A DNA stretch of 5,553 bases from positions 1 through 5,553 of the IMG/VR virus record IMGVR_UViG_3300020182_000005; one strand, written 5' to 3'. The notes under the pieces are model-generated. The model saw only the letters and a program-made list of their open reading frames with translations. It was not told the origin of the DNA and did not search any database. Origin of the DNA: a virus. How positions within the stretch are numbered: position 1 is the first letter of the stretch; every line of letters begins with the position of its first letter. Positions 1-5,553 of this stretch are shown here, piece by piece. A program made the position numbers and the translations under genes.

Positions 1-24
1 CCTCGGCGTAGGTTCGCCGTCGTT
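1..24. repeat. Terminal direct repeat, copy 1 (circular-assembly overlap)
   Basis: cctcggcgtaggttcgccgtcgtt at 1-24 is identical to 5530-5553. The Rep reading frame runs straight through the junction, as expected for a circle opened inside a gene. Confidence 0.95.
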
Positions 25-1160: not shown

Positions 1161-1697
1161 TTATTTGATTTGGTCTTGCCAATTGTCTATTTCCCAATGT
1201 GCGGGATCGTAGAAATTCCAATCTCCGCCCCAATCTAATTTAATATTTCTTTTACGCGCTATTTCTTTGCCGACTGCTCCTATACAGTCCCATTCTTTTT
1301 TGCTTAATTGCCACGCGCGTGTGGCGTGAATTATATCCACGGCCATTCCATATTGATGCGCGCCAAATCCAGCAGAAGCTTTGCTTCTGCCTTTGTCATA
1401 TAACTCTTGTTGCCGTTCTGCAGATCGTACAAATTCAAACGCTCGAATTGGTATATTCCGTCGCTTCATTGCTTTGGAAAAGGCTTTCCAAAACTCGATT
1501 ATATCAGGGTGTACCCCTTGATAATCGTTTTCCGTCTGCTGAATTTTAACCCAGAGTGATTTTGATGCATTAGGTTCTGCTAATGATCTTGCCGCTTCTA
1601 CGTGTGTTCTATGCACAAATTCGTCCCTGTGCCAGAATTGGATACGGTCAATAAACCGTATCCATCGTAGAAACTTACTCGGGGGTTTCTCCTGCAT
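1161..1697 (-). CDS. Zinc metallopeptidase of the M15 family (VanY-like / phage L-alanyl-D-glutamate endopeptidase type); putative peptidoglycan hydrolase (endolysin or entry enzyme)
   Basis: 178-aa ORF. Signature blocks read directly from the translation are FVRSAERQQELY (R-S-x3-Q-x2-L-Y), SAGFGAHQYGMAVDI (H-x6-D zinc ligands) and KLDWGGDWNFYDPAHWE (WGGDW ... D-x-x-H-W-E, third ligand/catalytic pair). I know this arrangement from the T5 endolysin, the Ply500 catalytic domain and VanY relatives. There is no N-terminal signal peptide or TM segment. The ATG at 1697 has AGAGG 12 nt upstream and overlaps the preceding gene by 23 nt. Confidence 0.88.
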   Translation of the reverse strand: MQEKPPSKFLRWIRFIDRIQFWHRDEFVHRTHVEAARSLAEPNASKSLWVKIQQTENDYQGVHPDIIEFWKAFSKAMKRRNIPIRAFEFVRSAERQQELYDKGRSKASAGFGAHQYGMAVDIIHATRAWQLSKKEWDCIGAVGKEIARKRNIKLDWGGDWNFYDPAHWEIDNWQDQIK

Positions 1698-2257: not shown

Positions 2258-3928
2258 TCACTTCGCGATACGTGAGGAATCAACTTGCGAAGTAATTGTG
2301 TCGTAATCGCTTGTTGCGTCAGTTTCTTGTAGTCCAGCACCGAATACGGTGTTTCCTACAATTTGCATGTCCGAAAGACATGTAATTTCAAAACTGTCGC
2401 TTATTTGGTCAGCAAATACTTTCTTGTGCAAATTTGAACAAAGATAGAAATCTTCGTTCAAACTCGGTGAGGTTTGCTCGGCAGTCCAAATTTTAGCCCT
2501 GTCCTCGTCAAATGCGTCATTTGCAGGGCGGTAATATTTACCACCTACGTTTACCGCATCTCTTTGCCACTCATGGTTAAGTGGTGCATAACCAAATGTA
2601 CCATCTGGTGTTGCATGGATTACGTCAGCGTGATCATTTTTTACAACTGCCACTTTTTCTGGGTCTAATACATCAGACAAATAGTTAGGTAACGTATCTG
2701 GATCTGTTGTGTATAAGAAATAATCTTTCTTACGTTCCCAGAGTTGCTCTGGCACAATTTCCATGGTCAGCATAATAATTCCACCTGTGTTTAAAGCGGG
2801 AGTTCTAAATGACATATCTACTGTAGCCATACCGTTTGTTGCTGACTTATCCAAATTTGCGCCATCTGTCGCATAACGTTGGTTAAATCCTATCATTGCA
2901 CGTTGACGACCCAATAGTATTGGTTGTTTTAATGATTCTTCAGGCACCCTGATTCCGCTCATAAGTAGGTCGATAATGTGCTCTGATTCCAAACCATCAT
3001 AACGTGCTCTTAATTTAGCAAAAGCCGCTGTTTTACGTGCTTGTTCAATGTCAGCTAATGACATTGTTGCGTTTCCGCCTGTTGTTAACTCTGCATATAT
3101 TTCATCAAATAGATACATATCGCCTTCGTCTATAAGCTCAGCACCAGACATTGCAGGTGAATAACCTAATGTATCTGTTGTTGTATTGTTTGCTGAAGCA
3201 GTTCCCGTAATACTATCACGAGAATATTTTGGTGCTTTTATTGGTGCTTGAAATGTTAATCCCGCAAGTGTGACTTGTCCGTCAATTAAATTCTGGTCAT
3301 AATCTGGTACAATATTTTGCATTCCGTTATTAATCCAAAACGCATCAGCTAATGTGTGATCAAATGCGTTTCTTAATGGTAACGATTTTGATCGTGCTTT
3401 GCGTCTATGGTTTACAATTGCATTATAAGATTCAACAATTGTTGTAGTTACATTACTTGTTGTTTGTGAATGTATACCCATTGTTTGATAAAATTGGGCA
3501 ATTCCACTTGCCGCTTCTGCATCTAAATCTTGGCCATATGTAGACAATGTATTTACTGTATCTGTAGGTACAGCATAAAATTTATTACTTTCAAAAAATG
3601 GTATTACACTACCTGCGGCGCCATTTTCTTTTTTATATGATCGGTTTAATTCGTCCATTGATCCGTTAAAACGGTCAAATGCAAGCATTGGTACGAAATG
3701 CGCGTAAAGAGTTACGCCTACACCATTCATTAACATTTCTGATGTTTCCATCATTTCAACGTTAACTCTAACTTTACCGCTTCGAACGCCGTCTTCGCGG
3801 TGTAACCATTCATACTTCAGTGGCAGGATTTTTCCTGCATCACCCGATGTTAACACTCGGCCTTTTGCACTACGTACAGATTTCTGTACTGCAATAGGTG
3901 AGTTTGGTATCATTTCAGTCATTCTCAT
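2258..3928 (-). CDS. Major capsid protein (Microviridae F / VP1 family)
   Basis: 556-aa ORF. It has a strong SD (AAGGAG, 9 nt upstream of the ATG at 3928). The N-terminal blocks SGDAGKILPLKYEWLHREDG and VTLYAHFVPMLAF match the conserved DAGxLIPI...(L)PGD... and FFVPxRL blocks of gokushovirus-type VP1, as I remember them. Size and genome context also fit. Confidence 0.92.
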   Translation of the reverse strand: MRMTEMIPNSPIAVQKSVRSAKGRVLTSGDAGKILPLKYEWLHREDGVRSGKVRVNVEMMETSEMLMNGVGVTLYAHFVPMLAFDRFNGSMDELNRSYKKENGAAGSVIPFFESNKFYAVPTDTVNTLSTYGQDLDAEAASGIAQFYQTMGIHSQTTSNVTTTIVESYNAIVNHRRKARSKSLPLRNAFDHTLADAFWINNGMQNIVPDYDQNLIDGQVTLAGLTFQAPIKAPKYSRDSITGTASANNTTTDTLGYSPAMSGAELIDEGDMYLFDEIYAELTTGGNATMSLADIEQARKTAAFAKLRARYDGLESEHIIDLLMSGIRVPEESLKQPILLGRQRAMIGFNQRYATDGANLDKSATNGMATVDMSFRTPALNTGGIIMLTMEIVPEQLWERKKDYFLYTTDPDTLPNYLSDVLDPEKVAVVKNDHADVIHATPDGTFGYAPLNHEWQRDAVNVGGKYYRPANDAFDEDRAKIWTAEQTSPSLNEDFYLCSNLHKKVFADQISDSFEITCLSDMQIVGNTVFGAGLQETDATSDYDTITSQVDSSRIAK

Positions 3929-3992
3929 TTGCGTTTTCTCCTTGCAATGATTTTGGTTATAATTTTTCTTATTTTCTTACACTTGGCGCACA

Positions 3993-4871
3993 TTAAAATT
4001 GTGCTTTCATGTAATTGACAAATTTCTTATCTTCTGGCGATAAATTACGTATAGTTCCTAAGGTTTTTTGAGATATTGCACCTGATTTATAATTCATCTG
4101 GCTTTGCAATTTTTTTAATTGCTCTATTGTATTTCCTTTGGTTTTCTTTTCAGCTTTGTAACCATACCAACCAAAAGTTTTTCCCAACTTTTCTCGTAAT
4201 GCTTTTCCTGTAATATCACCGACATGATATGAACCTGCCATTGTTTTAAGCATTCCACCTAATAATAAATTACCCCATTCCATTTCTTCTGTTGGTAATC
4301 TCCATTTTCGACCCCATGGATCAACCCACACATGATCAAGCGATTTTTGATTTGCAGAAAAAACGCTATTTCCATCAGTAACAAATTCATATGTAACTGG
4401 GTCTTGAACTACGTCATAGATTGCAGTGCTATGTTCTGAATTTAATTTTCCGTTTGATAATTTTACAGGTGCTGTTATATCTTTTCCTGTAATTGTAGGT
4501 TCTTCTATTACAGGTGCATTTTTGTTTTTGTGTTTATCATAAGCATCAAATGCATTGAAAAATGCATCTGAACTTAATCGCCCCATAGGAACCTGGTCTC
4601 TATAAAATCCTTGTCCACCTGTTGCTCTTAATACTGTTAACGGATTAAATCCGTTTGCAATTGCGTTGCGTCTTAATTTACCTAAATCTGTTCCAGTTTG
4701 TCGTGCTTGTAATTTTCTGTCGTCTAATGAACTACCTATTTGATAACCTGCGGCTGCACCTTGTGCACCTCCCATCATTGCGCCGCCTGCGGCTAATGTA
4801 TATTTAGCCATTCGTCTTGATTCATCTTCAAATGAACGCAATGCTTGTCTAAATTTTGTTCCAAAACCCAT
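3993..4871 (-). CDS. Minor capsid / DNA pilot protein (VP2- or H-like)
   Basis: 292-aa ORF with an SD (GGGAG, 9 nt upstream of the ATG at 4871). A Gly/Ala-rich hydrophobic segment (LAAGGAMMGGAQGAAAGYQIG) is followed by NGFNPLTVL. This resembles the G/A-rich region plus GLNP-type motif of microvirus VP2 proteins. It lies adjacent to the capsid gene. Confidence 0.78.
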   Translation of the reverse strand: MGFGTKFRQALRSFEDESRRMAKYTLAAGGAMMGGAQGAAAGYQIGSSLDDRKLQARQTGTDLGKLRRNAIANGFNPLTVLRATGGQGFYRDQVPMGRLSSDAFFNAFDAYDKHKNKNAPVIEEPTITGKDITAPVKLSNGKLNSEHSTAIYDVVQDPVTYEFVTDGNSVFSANQKSLDHVWVDPWGRKWRLPTEEMEWGNLLLGGMLKTMAGSYHVGDITGKALREKLGKTFGWYGYKAEKKTKGNTIEQLKKLQSQMNYKSGAISQKTLGTIRNLSPEDKKFVNYMKAQF

Positions 4872-4872
4872 A

Positions 4873-4968
4873 TTATATTACTCCCGCGTTTATCAACGTG
4901 TCCGAGAATAGGGCTAAACCCATTACTATTCCCGCTACTGTTGCAATAATGATGTCTTTTAATTTCAT
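4873..4968 (-). CDS. Small single-pass membrane peptide, 31 aa (MKLKDIIIATVAGIVMGLALFSDTLINAGVI); function unknown
   Basis: Below the ORF-track cutoff. It has an excellent SD (GGAGGTGGATTAA directly before the ATG at 4968). Its ATG overlaps the stop of the upstream small ORF (ATGA at 4968-4965). Its TAA (4875-4873) ends 1 nt before the VP2 ATG. The hydrophobic core IIIATVAGIVMGLALF is flanked by charged residues. Confidence 0.6.
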   Translation of the reverse strand: MKLKDIIIATVAGIVMGLALFSDTLINAGVI

Positions 4969-5144
4969 TTAATCCACCTCCGTGTTATGAGGTCAATCGA
5001 TACTCCCGCTAAAGCGGTAAATCCCAAAACGATACTTTCAGTTGTACCAACTGCAATTCCTGCGCCCGCAAGCGATGCGCCGAGCATTGTACCACATCTA
5101 GTGATAATAGGTTTTAAGATTTGTTTAATTAATAAGATTTGCAA
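4965..5144 (-). CDS. Small hydrophobic Gly/Ala-rich protein: 59 aa from TTG 5144, or 40 aa from ATG 5087 (MLGASLAGAGIAVGTTESIVLGFTALAGVSIDLITRRWIK); function unknown
   Basis: Open minus-strand frame from the stop at 5174-5172 down to TGA at 4967-4965. TTG at 5144 is preceded by GAAGGA plus eight A residues (good SD spacing). The internal ATG at 5087 has no clear SD. There are two short hydrophobic G/A-rich segments and a basic C-terminus (RRWIK). It is the first gene downstream of the non-coding region. The start codon is uncertain. Confidence 0.5.
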   Translation of the reverse strand: MQILLIKQILKPIITRCGTMLGASLAGAGIAVGTTESIVLGFTALAGVSIDLITRRWIK

Positions 5145-5182
5145 TTTTTTTTCCTTCTTATTTAGAAGGGTCTAACTGCTCA

Positions 5183-5210
5183 ATGGCCGATAATATATAT
5201 TATGATACCA
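5183..5210. promoter_or_regulatory. dif-like 28-nt site (candidate XerC/XerD recombination target) built around a perfect 14-nt palindrome
   Basis: ATGGCCGATAA-TATATA-TTATGATACCA. The palindrome ATAATATATATTAT is at 5190-5203. By my own position-by-position count it matches E. coli dif (GGTGCGCATAA TGTATA TTATGTTAAAT) at 18 of 28 positions. It matches B. subtilis dif (ACTTCCTAGAA TATATA TTATGTAAACT) at 19 of 28, including the whole central hexamer and the inner ATAA / TTATG arm ends. Both dif sequences are quoted from memory. The sequence is low-complexity and AT-rich, so chance resemblance is possible. Confidence 0.3.
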
Positions 5211-5272: not shown

Positions 5273-5470
5273 GCCCTTTTTTTAAAAAAGTTTCATTTTT
5301 TTACTTTTAACACCAAGGAACATATGTTTTTTTAGACCCTGACCCCCCAGTAGGGGTGTTATTCTTTGGTCTATCTTTGCACCTTATCCGCAAGTCCTTG
5401 ACCCTAAAGTTTTTGGGGGATTTTTTCCGCTTCGCTAGAGCCTGTTCAGGCGGTGCTGTAGCCGTTCGCT

Positions 5471-5500: not shown

Positions 5501-5553
5501 CTATTCCCCGTCCAATTCCGCGTACTGTACCTCGGCGTAGGTTCGCCGTCGTT
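5501..5553 (-). CDS. C-terminal end of the same Rep CDS (5530-5553 duplicates 1-24; the unique part is 5501-5529)
   Basis: Position 1 equals 5530. Continuing the frame gives ...QRRRTYAE-VQYAELDGE, then TAG at 5503-5501. Confidence 0.85.
   Translation of the reverse strand, partial: RRRTYAEVQYAELDGE
5530..5553. repeat. Terminal direct repeat, copy 2 (circular-assembly overlap)
   Basis: Identical to 1-24. Confidence 0.95.

What the first reader, a model, noticed from the sequence alone, without database searches (positions are those of the whole stretch)
4873..5144. Two unannotated, translationally coupled small membrane-protein ORFs at the head of the operon (candidate holin-like partners of the peptidase)
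Seen in sequence:
- Two minus-strand ORFs lie below the 60-aa cutoff.
- ORF A is 59 aa from an SD-preceded TTG at 5144, or 40 aa from ATG 5087. It is G/A-rich and hydrophobic with a basic RRWIK tail.
- ORF B is 31 aa, single TM, with a GGAGG SD.
- They are chained by an ATGA stop/start overlap (4968-4965). ORF B stops 1 nt before the VP2 start.

Inference: such tight coupling and good SDs argue that these are real genes. Small size, one or two TM segments and a charged C-terminus are the generic hallmarks of holins and pinholins. The genome encodes a signal-less peptidoglycan hydrolase that would need membrane access. A holin/endolysin-type two-component lysis system would be unusual for Microviridae.

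Alternatives: an amurin-like single-gene lysis protein, an infection or DNA-delivery accessory to VP2, or a superinfection-exclusion peptide.
Basis: partly seen in the sequence, partly recalled or inferred. Interest (0 to 1): 0.7.

Follow-up and report, generated by a model that had tools for sequence, protein, structure and literature searches.

The report
Candidate holin pair in a microvirus
Two tiny, conserved membrane-protein genes sit in front of the pilot-protein gene of this marine single-stranded-DNA phage, and the larger one is distantly related to a putative holin family of tailed phages, so it is probably the missing membrane partner of the phage's signal-less cell-wall peptidase.

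Summary
ORF A (5144-4965, 59 aa, TTG start) and ORF B (4968-4873, 31 aa) are there, share an ATGA overlap, and have SD sequences.

The window is a complete circular Occultatumvirinae microvirus, closest to Roseobacter phages CRPss-151 to -155.

- **Real genes.** Both ORFs lie upstream of VP2 in nearly all of about 100 related loci that cover the site. dN/dS is 0.05-0.34 in frame and 0.7-3.3 off frame.
- **Membrane proteins.** They are the only hydrophobic products in the genome. The M15 peptidase has no hydrophobic N-terminus here or in 57 relatives.
- **ORF A family.** It holds 421 clusters, and every member whose contig I examined was on a microvirus-sized contig. The only database family it hits consistently is Pfam PF23987 (Phage_holin_10, Pam3 gp28 putative holin): 22 of 149 representatives at E<=0.01, one above Pfam's cutoff. 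The window's own ORF A gives no hit, and profile-profile probability is only 4-5%.
- **Tailed phages.** There PF23987 genes directly follow PG_binding_1 lytic-enzyme genes; two of three also match Peptidase_M15_4.
- **ORF B.** A clade-restricted single-pass peptide with no database match.

Best reading: ORF A is the holin for the M15 endolysin and ORF B is an accessory. This is unproven. The papers searched describe no microvirus holin.

The parts
4965..5144 (-). ORF A: 59 aa, TTG start. Predicted two-helix hairpin (helices 2-27 and 32-58) with a Gly/Ala-rich first hydrophobic stretch, a more hydrophobic second stretch containing invariant D51-L52, and a basic tail (RRWIK). Candidate holin and a distant relative of Pfam Phage_holin_10.
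   Evidence: gapless family alignment; hydropathy; dN/dS 0.15-0.21 in frame against 0.9-3 off frame; 421 clusters; PF23987 hits; AlphaFold2, pLDDT 76.7.
4873..4968 (-). ORF B: 31 aa, a single clear TM segment (IIIATVAGIVMGLALF) with a K/D-rich N-terminus. It overlaps ORF A's stop (ATGA) and ends 1 nt before VP2. Clade-restricted accessory membrane peptide.
   Evidence: KD19 2.05; dN/dS 0.13 in the window-like clade, 0.05-0.34 overall; off frame 0.7-3.3; no Pfam family.
4977..4981 (-). GGAGG Shine-Dalgarno of ORF B, lying inside the ORF A codons for T54-R55-R56-W57 (ACA CGG AGG TGG, 4985-4974).
   Evidence: The same ..GGAGG..N8..ATG arrangement is seen in L008-L016.
5152..5156 (-). AAGGA Shine-Dalgarno of ORF A, 7-8 nt before the TTG.
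   Evidence: It reads AAGGAG in most relatives.
5153..5169 (-). Stem-loop CCTTCT-AAATA-AGAAGG whose 3' arm contains the ORF A Shine-Dalgarno. Possible translational control of ORF A, or an element of the ssDNA itself.
   Evidence: ViennaRNA folds. The stem is kept with different sequences in other lineages: CCTTCAT/ATGAAGG, TCCCT/AGGGA, CCCT/AGGG.
1161..1697 (-). M15-family peptidoglycan peptidase (178 aa) with no signal peptide or SAR domain. Presumed endolysin and functional partner of ORF A.
   Evidence: PHROG endolysin, 1.6e-21; Peptidase_M15_4 2e-07, VanY 1.7e-05; KD19 at most 0.54; at most 0.98 in 57 homologues.
3993..4871 (-). VP2 (DNA pilot protein) gene. It starts 1 nt after ORF B and is the constant downstream neighbour of the ORF A (and ORF B) genes.

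Best explanation
ORF A is the holin of a holin-endolysin lysis system in this microvirus. ORF B is a small single-pass membrane partner that modulates it, as a co-holin, an antiholin or a timing factor.

Proposed sequence of events:
1. ORF A, ORF B and VP2 are translated as a coupled unit. A stem-loop that sequesters ORF A's ribosome-binding site may limit how much ORF A is made.
2. ORF A inserts into the inner membrane. Its second helix is the membrane anchor, its Gly/Ala-rich first helix packs against it, and both charged ends stay in the cytoplasm.
3. ORF A accumulates during infection.
4. At a critical level it permeabilises the membrane. The cytoplasmic, signal-less M15 peptidase then reaches the peptidoglycan, cuts it, and progeny are released.

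Shown here: both genes are real, conserved and selected; both products are hydrophobic; the peptidase has no export signal; ORF A's family is distantly similar to a putative holin family of tailed phages.

Inferred: membrane topology, hole formation, the role of ORF B, and regulation by the hairpin.
For: 1. Both ORFs are conserved, coupled and under purifying selection across many lineages.
2. They are the only products of the genome with a 19-residue Kyte-Doolittle mean of 1.5 or more. ORF B scores 2.05 and ORF A 1.57; every other product scores 1.36 or less.
3. The M15 peptidase, here and in 57 homologues, has no hydrophobic N-terminus. It therefore needs a route across the membrane.
4. Pfam PF23987 Phage_holin_10 is the only family hit consistently by the ORF A family:
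   - 11 of 21 members at E<=1;
   - near full-length matches at 13-20 bits;
   - 22 of 149 representatives at E<=0.01;
   - the microviral member P0210 scores 27.5 bits, E 3.3e-6, above the 27-bit cutoff.
5. Shuffle and reversal controls show that the signal depends on residue order.
6. In Pam3, a Bosea prophage and a third contig, the PF23987 gene directly follows a PG_binding_1 lytic-enzyme gene. That gene also matches Peptidase_M15_4 in Pam3 and on the third contig (weak). This is the same Pfam peptidase family as the microvirus enzyme.
7. Two cases of joint absence. CRPss-154 lacks M15, ORF A and ORF B. Locus L055 has an M15 gene with an internal deletion and lacks ORF A.
8. M15-encoding relatives without an ORF A homologue (L105, L106) still carry a different small TM ORF at the same site.
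9. Ebor's analogous 45-aa membrane protein Gp1 was not detected in virions (PMC11980548).
Against: - The window's own ORF A has no Pfam or PHROG hit.
- Profile-profile probability against a Pam3-gp28 alignment is only 4-5.5%, with P about 0.01.
- PF23987 is a 'putative' holin family, named from annotation and gene position. The papers I found contain no experiment on it.
- The conserved C-terminal AGLVASAAALPEV extension of the Pam3 family is missing from ORF A.
- ORF A's hydrophobic stretches are short, about 15 residues each. The first is marginal for a membrane span.
- ORF A is never next to the M15 gene. It is always next to VP2, which fits a VP2-linked role equally well.
- The co-absence test rests on two genomes only.
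- ORF B has no detectable relative outside this clade.
- The structure search gave nothing significant.
Confidence: 0.55

Rival explanations
1. ORF A and ORF B are membrane factors that serve the pilot protein VP2. They could form a membrane platform or chaperone for VP2 during assembly, or help the DNA conduit during entry. Their link to the peptidase would then be coincidental.
For: - ORF A always lies directly upstream of VP2, usually overlapping its start, in every lineage examined. This includes distant lineages that lack ORF B.
- VP2 N-termini in this group are Gly-rich and moderately hydrophobic.
- The three genes are translationally coupled.
Against: - CRPss-154 has a normal VP2 but neither ORF A nor ORF B.
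- From general knowledge, gokushoviruses carry VP2 without such genes.
- In Ebor, only VP2, the capsid protein and the basic Gp10 were found in virions in significant amounts. The small membrane protein Gp1 was not found, although small hydrophobic peptides are hard to detect by mass spectrometry.
- All genes in this 5.5-kb genome are tightly packed, so adjacency is weak evidence.
- This reading does not explain the PF23987 similarity.
Confidence: 0.15
2. One of the two peptides is a single-gene lysis protein (an amurin, like phiX174 E) that blocks cell-wall synthesis independently of the M15 peptidase. The peptidase would then serve another purpose, such as entry.
For: - Single-gene lysis by a small membrane protein is the classical route in Microviridae (PMC3394797).
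- ORF B, with an N-terminal TM segment and 31 aa, is the sort of peptide that could act this way.
Against: - There is no similarity to any lysis family other than PF23987.
- The genes are free-standing rather than embedded in another gene as E is.
- A conserved, signal-less peptidoglycan hydrolase is present in nearly all genomes that carry ORF A.
- Ebor's hydrolase appeared only in trace amounts in virions.
Confidence: 0.1
3. The peptides are superinfection-exclusion or host-takeover membrane proteins and are not needed for lysis or assembly.
For: Small phage membrane proteins often have such roles (general knowledge). ORF B is clade-restricted and variable, and in some lineages it gains an extra soluble domain.
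Against: - ORF A is conserved across 421 sequence clusters, at a fixed position, with low dN/dS, in genomes of only about 5.5 kb. That argues for a core function.
- Accessory exclusion genes are usually patchy in distribution.
Confidence: 0.1

Closest known systems
Pfam PF23987 Phage_holin_10 (Pam3 gp28 family putative phage holin; cyanophage Pam3 and Bosea prophages)
   Same: - The core has a similar size and layout: N-terminal amphipathic helix with Arg, a Gly-containing stretch, a short polar turn, one strongly hydrophobic helix, then a basic cluster (RRK against RRWIK or ERTK).
- The similarity is weak but order-dependent, and one microviral family member scores above Pfam's cutoff.
- In Pam3 and on a third contig the type genes pair with a Peptidase_M15_4 endolysin, the same Pfam family as the microvirus enzyme; the Bosea enzyme shows only PG_binding_1 on record.
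   Different: - The window's ORF A does not hit the model, and hhalign probability is 4-5.5%.
- ORF A lacks the conserved 35-aa C-terminal extension AGLVASAAALPEV.
- ORF A is not adjacent to its endolysin gene.
- ORF A has the invariant P12, R16, G18, G29, D51-L52 signature, which the Pam3 family lacks.
- The two M15 enzymes show no pairwise BLASTP similarity.
- The Pam3 family's holin function is itself only an annotation.
Ebor Gp1 (45-aa 'membrane protein') and Gp2, upstream of VP2 in the Tainavirinae microvirus Ebor (PMC11980548)
   Same: - A small predicted membrane protein plus a second small ORF lie immediately upstream of the pilot-protein gene.
- The microvirus carries an experimentally verified peptidoglycan hydrolase (Gp7).
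- Gp1 was not detected in virions.
   Different: - I did not have Ebor's sequence, so homology to ORF A or ORF B was not tested.
- The sizes differ (45 and 84 aa against 59 and 31 aa).
- The paper assigns no function.
Two-component or class II holins and pinholins of tailed phages (for example S21-68; mycobacteriophage Ms6 Gp4/Gp5; PBSX XhlA/XhlB). Recalled from general knowledge.
   Same: - Small size.
- A weakly hydrophobic Gly/Ala-rich first helix followed by a firmer second helix.
- A charged C-terminus.
- A second small membrane protein encoded next door.
   Different: - Pinholins work with SAR endolysins, and the M15 enzyme here has no SAR domain.
- No sequence relationship to these families was detected.
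phiX174 lysis protein E (amurin)
   Same: A small membrane protein used by a microvirus to lyse its host.
   Different: - E is embedded in gene D, has one N-terminal TM segment and inhibits MraY; it needs no endolysin (PMC3394797).
- ORF A and ORF B are free-standing, unrelated in sequence, and occur together with an endolysin.

Membership tests
Pfam PF23987 Phage_holin_10 | Score at or above the curated gathering cutoff (27 bits) against the family model | tested here: not met
   - The window's ORF A gives no hit, even at E<=1.
- Close CRPss-type relatives score 12.5-19.9 bits.
- One distant family member, P0210, scores 27.5 bits.
- The link is therefore transitive and subthreshold for this protein.
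Pfam PF23987 Phage_holin_10 | Conserved C-terminal segment RRKAGLVASAAALPEV following the TM helix | tested here: not met
   The A6 alignment shows these residues invariant or nearly so in the Pam3/Bosea set. ORF A ends right after the basic cluster.
Pfam PF23987 Phage_holin_10 | Gene immediately adjacent to an endolysin gene | tested here: not met
   - In Pam3, Bosea and L145 the gene directly follows the lytic-enzyme gene.
- In the window, M15 (1697-1161) and ORF A (5144-4965) are separated by the Rep gene and an intergenic region.
Holin (functional class) | Small protein with at least one transmembrane segment and a charged, hydrophilic C-terminus | tested here: met
   - ORF A has 59 aa. 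Its second hydrophobic helix scores KD19 1.4-2.0 across lineages, and its tail is RRWIK, ERTK or similar.
- AlphaFold2 predicts a helical hairpin.
- The first segment is marginal (KD19 0.7-1.5).
Holin (functional class) | Occurs together with a cytoplasmic endolysin that lacks its own export signal | tested here: met
   - M15 is present in nearly every genome that carries ORF A.
- No hydrophobic N-terminus was found in 57 M15 homologues.
- CRPss-154 and L055 support joint loss.
Holin (functional class) | Forms lethal membrane lesions at a programmed time and releases the endolysin | not testable with these tools
   Needs expression and lysis assays.
Pinholin / SAR-endolysin system | Partner endolysin carries an N-terminal signal-anchor-release domain | tested here: not met
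   The maximum KD19 in the first 70 residues of 57 M15 homologues is 0.86. The window enzyme's N-terminal 89 residues peak at -0.1 and the whole protein at 0.54.
Spanin (considered for ORF B) | Periplasmic domain able to bridge the inner and outer membranes, or a lipoprotein signal | tested here: not met
   ORF B has 31 aa, with at most about 10 residues after the TM segment and no Cys lipobox.
Microvirus amurin (phiX174 E-like) | Lysis gene embedded out of frame in another gene, with sequence similarity to E | tested here: not met
   ORF A and ORF B are free-standing genes between the Rep region and VP2. Neither hits any lysis family in Pfam or PHROGs.

The most novel reading that the evidence does not exclude
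ORF A (59 aa) and ORF B (31 aa) together form a minimal two-component holin. ORF A would have been captured from a tailed-phage lysis cassette (Phage_holin_10 plus an M15 endolysin) by an ancestor of the Occultatumvirinae-like microviruses. A stem-loop that masks ORF A's ribosome-binding site would set the timing. A large, globally abundant branch of ssDNA phages would then lyse by a canonical but miniaturised holin-endolysin route instead of the single-gene lysis that is textbook for Microviridae.
Probability: 0.3. Interest if true: 0.7.

Novelty: new member of a known kind. Interest (0 to 1): 0.55.

Why it matters
**The open question.** Textbook lysis in Microviridae is single-gene lysis, as with phiX174 E. 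Peptidoglycan hydrolases in microviruses have been reported since 2012 and were verified biochemically for phage Ebor in 2025. None of the papers I could search says how a signal-less enzyme crosses the inner membrane.

**What this finding adds.**
- It names a specific, widespread candidate: the ORF A family, with 421 sequence clusters, found on microvirus-sized contigs wherever I checked.
- It ties that family, weakly, to a putative holin family that pairs with M15-type endolysins in tailed phages. This points to acquisition of a lysis module across the ssDNA/dsDNA divide.

**Why it is testable.** The question can be settled directly with three small genes.

**Practical uses.**
- Better annotation of thousands of marine and soil microvirus genomes.
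- A very small holin candidate that could serve as a tool.

Tried and rejected
- **Single-sequence family searches.** Pfam and PHROGs scans of ORF A and ORF B gave nothing. NCBIfam gave only scattered chance hits. A PDB sequence search gave only GxGxxG-type chance matches.
- **Structure search.** Foldseek of the ORF A model against viral structures gave no E-value below 0.37, only generic helical hairpins, two of them named 'holin'. I treat this as uninformative.
- **Looking for ORF A in tailed phages.** tblastn of a CRPss-type ORF A against 50,697 phage genomes found only microviruses.
- **Pam3 endolysin comparison.** BLASTP of the window's M15 against Pam3 gp27 was not significant. The two share only the Pfam family.
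- **Profile-profile comparison.** hhalign of ORF A alignments against a Pam3-gp28 alignment gave the same register as Pfam but a probability of only 4-5.5%. I do not claim membership.
- **Phylogenetic-profile test.** I wanted to know whether ORF A and ORF B disappear wherever M15 is absent. Relatives of the M15-less CRPss-154 could not be retrieved from IMG/VR, and the supplementary tables of PMC11499846 are not held. The test rests on two genomes.
- **Pinholin/SAR model.** Rejected, because the peptidase has no hydrophobic N-terminus.
- **Spanin role for ORF B.** Rejected, because it has no periplasmic domain.
- **The 40-aa ORF A from ATG 5087.** Rejected as the main product, because the upstream 19 residues are conserved.
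- **Promoter scan.** One weak sigma-70-like site at 5231-5202, no more than expected by chance.
Full report
**What the window is**

The 5553-nt window has a 24-nt terminal direct repeat, so it is a complete circular genome of about 5529 nt. All genes lie on the minus strand. In transcription order they are:
- ORF A, 5144-4965
- ORF B, 4968-4873
- VP2, 4871-3993
- a 22-aa basic ORF, 3993-3925
- the major capsid protein, 3928-2258
- a 175-aa protein, 2202-1675
- an M15 peptidase, 1697-1161
- Rep, starting near 1021 and wrapping round to 5504
- a basic ORF of about 100 aa that overlaps the 3' end of Rep and ends at 5310

The closest isolates are Roseobacter phages CRPss-151, -152, -153 and -155, at about 71% nucleotide identity. 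These phages are assigned to the proposed subfamily Occultatumvirinae (PMC11499846).

The exact positions are in the observation check.

**Both ORFs are real genes**

Conservation:
- In CRPss-151, -152, -153 and -155, a 61-aa ORF A homologue is annotated as hypothetical. It is followed, again with an ATGA overlap, by an unannotated 31-aa ORF B homologue that ends at the VP2 start.
- In CRPss-251 both genes are annotated, at 64 and 29 aa.
- Metagenomic relatives found through ORF A, VP2 and the capsid protein give more than 100 loci. HMM scans find ORF A and ORF B upstream of VP2 in nearly all that cover the site. The exceptions, CRPss-154 and L055, are discussed below.

Selection, by pooled Nei-Gojobori dN/dS:

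| Gene | Clade | In frame | Off frame |
|---|---|---|---|
| ORF A | window-like, 31 haplotypes | 0.15 | 1.2-3.1 |
| ORF A | CRPss-like | 0.21 | 0.9-2.3 |
| ORF B | three clades | 0.13, 0.34, 0.05 | 0.7-3.3 |

Eleven distinct nucleotide haplotypes encode one and the same ORF A protein.

The ORF A alignment is essentially gapless; its only gap is one column near the N-terminus. P12, R16, G18, L25, G29, D51 and L52 are invariant and K11 is nearly so. This supports the 59-aa form starting at the TTG. In relatives the start codon at that position alternates between TTG and ATG.

**They are membrane proteins, and the only ones in the genome**

- ORF B has one clear TM segment, with a 19-residue Kyte-Doolittle (KD19) mean of 1.9-2.5 across lineages.
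- ORF A has two short hydrophobic stretches of about 15 residues. The second scores 1.4-2.0. The first is Gly/Ala-rich and scores 0.7-1.5, which is marginal.
- AlphaFold2, run on a 21-sequence alignment, predicts a two-helix hairpin (helices 2-27 and 32-58) that turns at the invariant G29, with mean pLDDT 76.7.
- No other product of the genome exceeds 1.36. The M15 peptidase peaks at 0.54, and none of 57 homologues has a hydrophobic N-terminus.
- I had no dedicated topology predictor.

**How wide the ORF A family is**

- A profile search of 1.84 billion representative proteins finds 421 clusters at E<=1e-3. The best 150, which are the ones listed, are 57-123 aa long and match over nearly the whole profile.
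- The 14 distant members I examined sit on contigs of 6.5 kb or less, and five of them were read in context. The profile search found nothing on a contig longer than 12.5 kb.
- In distant microviruses, ORF A abuts or overlaps the VP2 start with no ORF B in between. Each of those genomes also has an M15-like gene.
- The family includes annotated hypothetical proteins of Rhizobium phages RHph_TM23 and TM24 and of tortoise microviruses 81 and 37.
- ORF B is confined to the marine clade.
  - In some lineages it carries an N-terminal soluble extension of about 55 aa.
  - In others that same domain is a separate ORF between ORF A and ORF B.

**The link to a holin family**

Single-sequence scans of the window's ORF A and ORF B found nothing. 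Scanning family members one by one gave a different picture: Pfam PF23987, Phage_holin_10 ('Bacteriophage holin Pam3 gp28 family'), is the only family hit consistently.
- 11 of 21 members hit it at E<=1.
- The matches are near full-length, at 12.5-19.9 bits.
- 22 of 149 representatives hit it at E<=0.01.
- P0210, a 63-aa member found at E 8e-10 by the ORF A profile, scores 27.5 bits (E 3.3e-6). That is above the 27-bit cutoff.
- P0210 lies in a typical microvirus contig with the order Rep, ORF A, VP2, capsid protein, a 184-aa gene, M15.

Controls and caveats:
- An HMM that I built from 112 Pam3-gp28 homologues scores real ORF A cores at a median of 4.6 bits. Shuffled cores score 0.0 and reversed cores 0.4. 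Of the real sequences, 85% exceed the 95th percentile of the shuffles.
- hhalign reproduces the same alignment register but gives a probability of only 4-5.5%, with P of 0.007-0.01.
- ORF A lacks the conserved C-terminal extension of the Pam3 family.

In cyanophage Pam3 (ON014755), gp28 'holin' directly follows gp27 'lytic enzyme'. gp27 consists of PG_binding_1 plus Peptidase_M15_4, the same Pfam peptidase family as the microvirus enzyme. The same holin-after-lytic-enzyme pairing occurs in a Bosea prophage (PG_binding_1 only on record) and on a third contig with a weak Peptidase_M15_4 hit. The two M15 enzymes are not similar by BLASTP. I found no experiment on gp28 in the papers searched. Its holin label is therefore an annotation.

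**Co-occurrence with the peptidase**

- Nearly every genome with ORF A has M15.
- CRPss-154, the one isolate without M15 (PMC11499846), also lacks ORF A and ORF B.
- L055 has an M15 gene with an internal deletion. By eye, the deletion removes the first His of the zinc motif. L055 lacks ORF A but keeps a 28-aa TM ORF like ORF B.
- Tortoise microvirus 70 and a rat microvirus have M15 and no ORF A homologue. Instead they carry a different small TM ORF at the same site.
- I could not retrieve more genomes without the peptidase, so this test is weak.

**Literature**

- Roux et al. 2012 proposed the microviral M15 peptidase as an endolysin and contrasted it with single-gene lysis.
- The Occultatumvirinae and Tainavirinae papers mention no holin and no transmembrane protein.
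- The Ebor paper verifies a peptidoglycan hydrolase. It also lists a 45-aa 'membrane protein', Gp1, upstream of VP2 that was not found in virions, and gives it no function.
- A full-text search for microviruses, holin and transmembrane together returned two papers, Roux 2012 (read here) and a karst-lake single-cell study I did not open. Neither title nor abstract describes a microviral holin.

**Interpretation**

The best-supported reading is a holin-endolysin system. ORF A is the holin, M15 is the endolysin, and ORF B is a clade-specific accessory membrane peptide. I put this at 0.55.

The main rival is a VP2-linked membrane role, which rests on the invariant synteny with VP2. I put that at 0.15. 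An independent amurin and a superinfection-exclusion protein are less likely, at 0.1 each.

I do not file ORF A as a member of PF23987. It fails the score test, the C-terminal motif test and the adjacency test. It is a probable distant relative that looks and is placed like a holin.

Novelty: a new member of a known kind (a holin) in a virus family where none has been described. The interest is moderate. The endolysin half is already published and the holin half is an expected corollary, but the candidate is specific, widespread and directly testable.

Noticed in passing
window 5153-5169 (minus strand): The stem-loop CCTTCT-AAATA-AGAAGG has a 3' arm that contains ORF A's Shine-Dalgarno. Other lineages keep a stem at the same place with different sequences (CCTTCAT/ATGAAGG, TCCCT/AGGGA, CCCT/AGGG, and a bulged version in CRPss phages). 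It could throttle ORF A translation, or it could be a structure of the ssDNA itself.
   Followed up: partly
window 5184-5203 (minus strand): The AT-rich motif ATAATATATATTATCGGCCA, about 40 nt upstream of ORF A, is nearly identical across the window-like, L008 and L011 lineages, while the flanking sequence varies. It may be the Rep nick site or origin.
   Followed up: no
window 3925-3993 (minus strand): A 22-aa very basic ORF (MCAKCKKIRKIITKIIARRKRK) bridges the end of VP2 and the start of the capsid gene. A CxKCKKIRK-type motif (regex C.[KR]C[KE]KIR[KR]) appears on the coding strand in 48 of 99 related loci, including L055. The M15-less CRPss-154 carries a near variant, CTKCEKIRK, seen by eye.
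   Followed up: partly
window about 80 down to 1, continuing at 5529-5310 (minus strand): A strongly basic ORF of about 100 aa (MARKKTRSNKNNK...) overlaps the 3' end of Rep in another frame. It is conserved in relatives and corresponds in position and charge to Ebor Gp10, a virion protein proposed as an analogue of the J/VP8 DNA-binding protein.
   Followed up: partly
window 1-24 and 5530-5553: A 24-nt exact terminal direct repeat (CCTCGGCGTAGGTTCGCCGTCGTT). The contig is a circular genome of about 5529 nt, and the Rep gene spans the junction.
   Followed up: yes
L005 495-1325 and L006 3001-3831, compared with window 3993-4871: In near-identical genomes, VP2 shares only its N-terminal 126 residues or so (78-88% identity). 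After that the sequence is unrelated, while ORF A and ORF B stay almost identical. The C-terminal half of the pilot protein seems to be swapped by recombination.
   Followed up: no
L077 4709-4984, L081 2086-2361, L084 4732-4959, L083 213-494, L092 250-435: Some lineages have an extra soluble domain of about 55-90 aa (DLPSDFDxKFAEQTxEAY...). It is either fused to the N-terminus of ORF B or encoded as a separate ORF between ORF A and ORF B. It has no family match. The fused form resembles, in architecture only, Pam3 gp29, a 70-aa tail-anchored protein encoded right after the Pam3 holin.
   Followed up: partly
L055 2971-3420 and 4780-5300: This relative has an M15 gene with an internal deletion of about 29 aa. 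By eye the deletion removes the first His of the zinc motif. The genome lacks ORF A but keeps a 28-aa TM ORF like ORF B just before VP2. It is a possible case of decay of the lysis module, or an assembly artefact.
   Followed up: partly
L105 4858-5091 and L106 4646-4834: Tortoise microvirus 70 and a rat microvirus have M15 but no ORF A homologue. A different small ORF with one strong TM segment (shared motif LPxMAGAxGxI) occupies the slot just upstream of VP2.
   Followed up: partly
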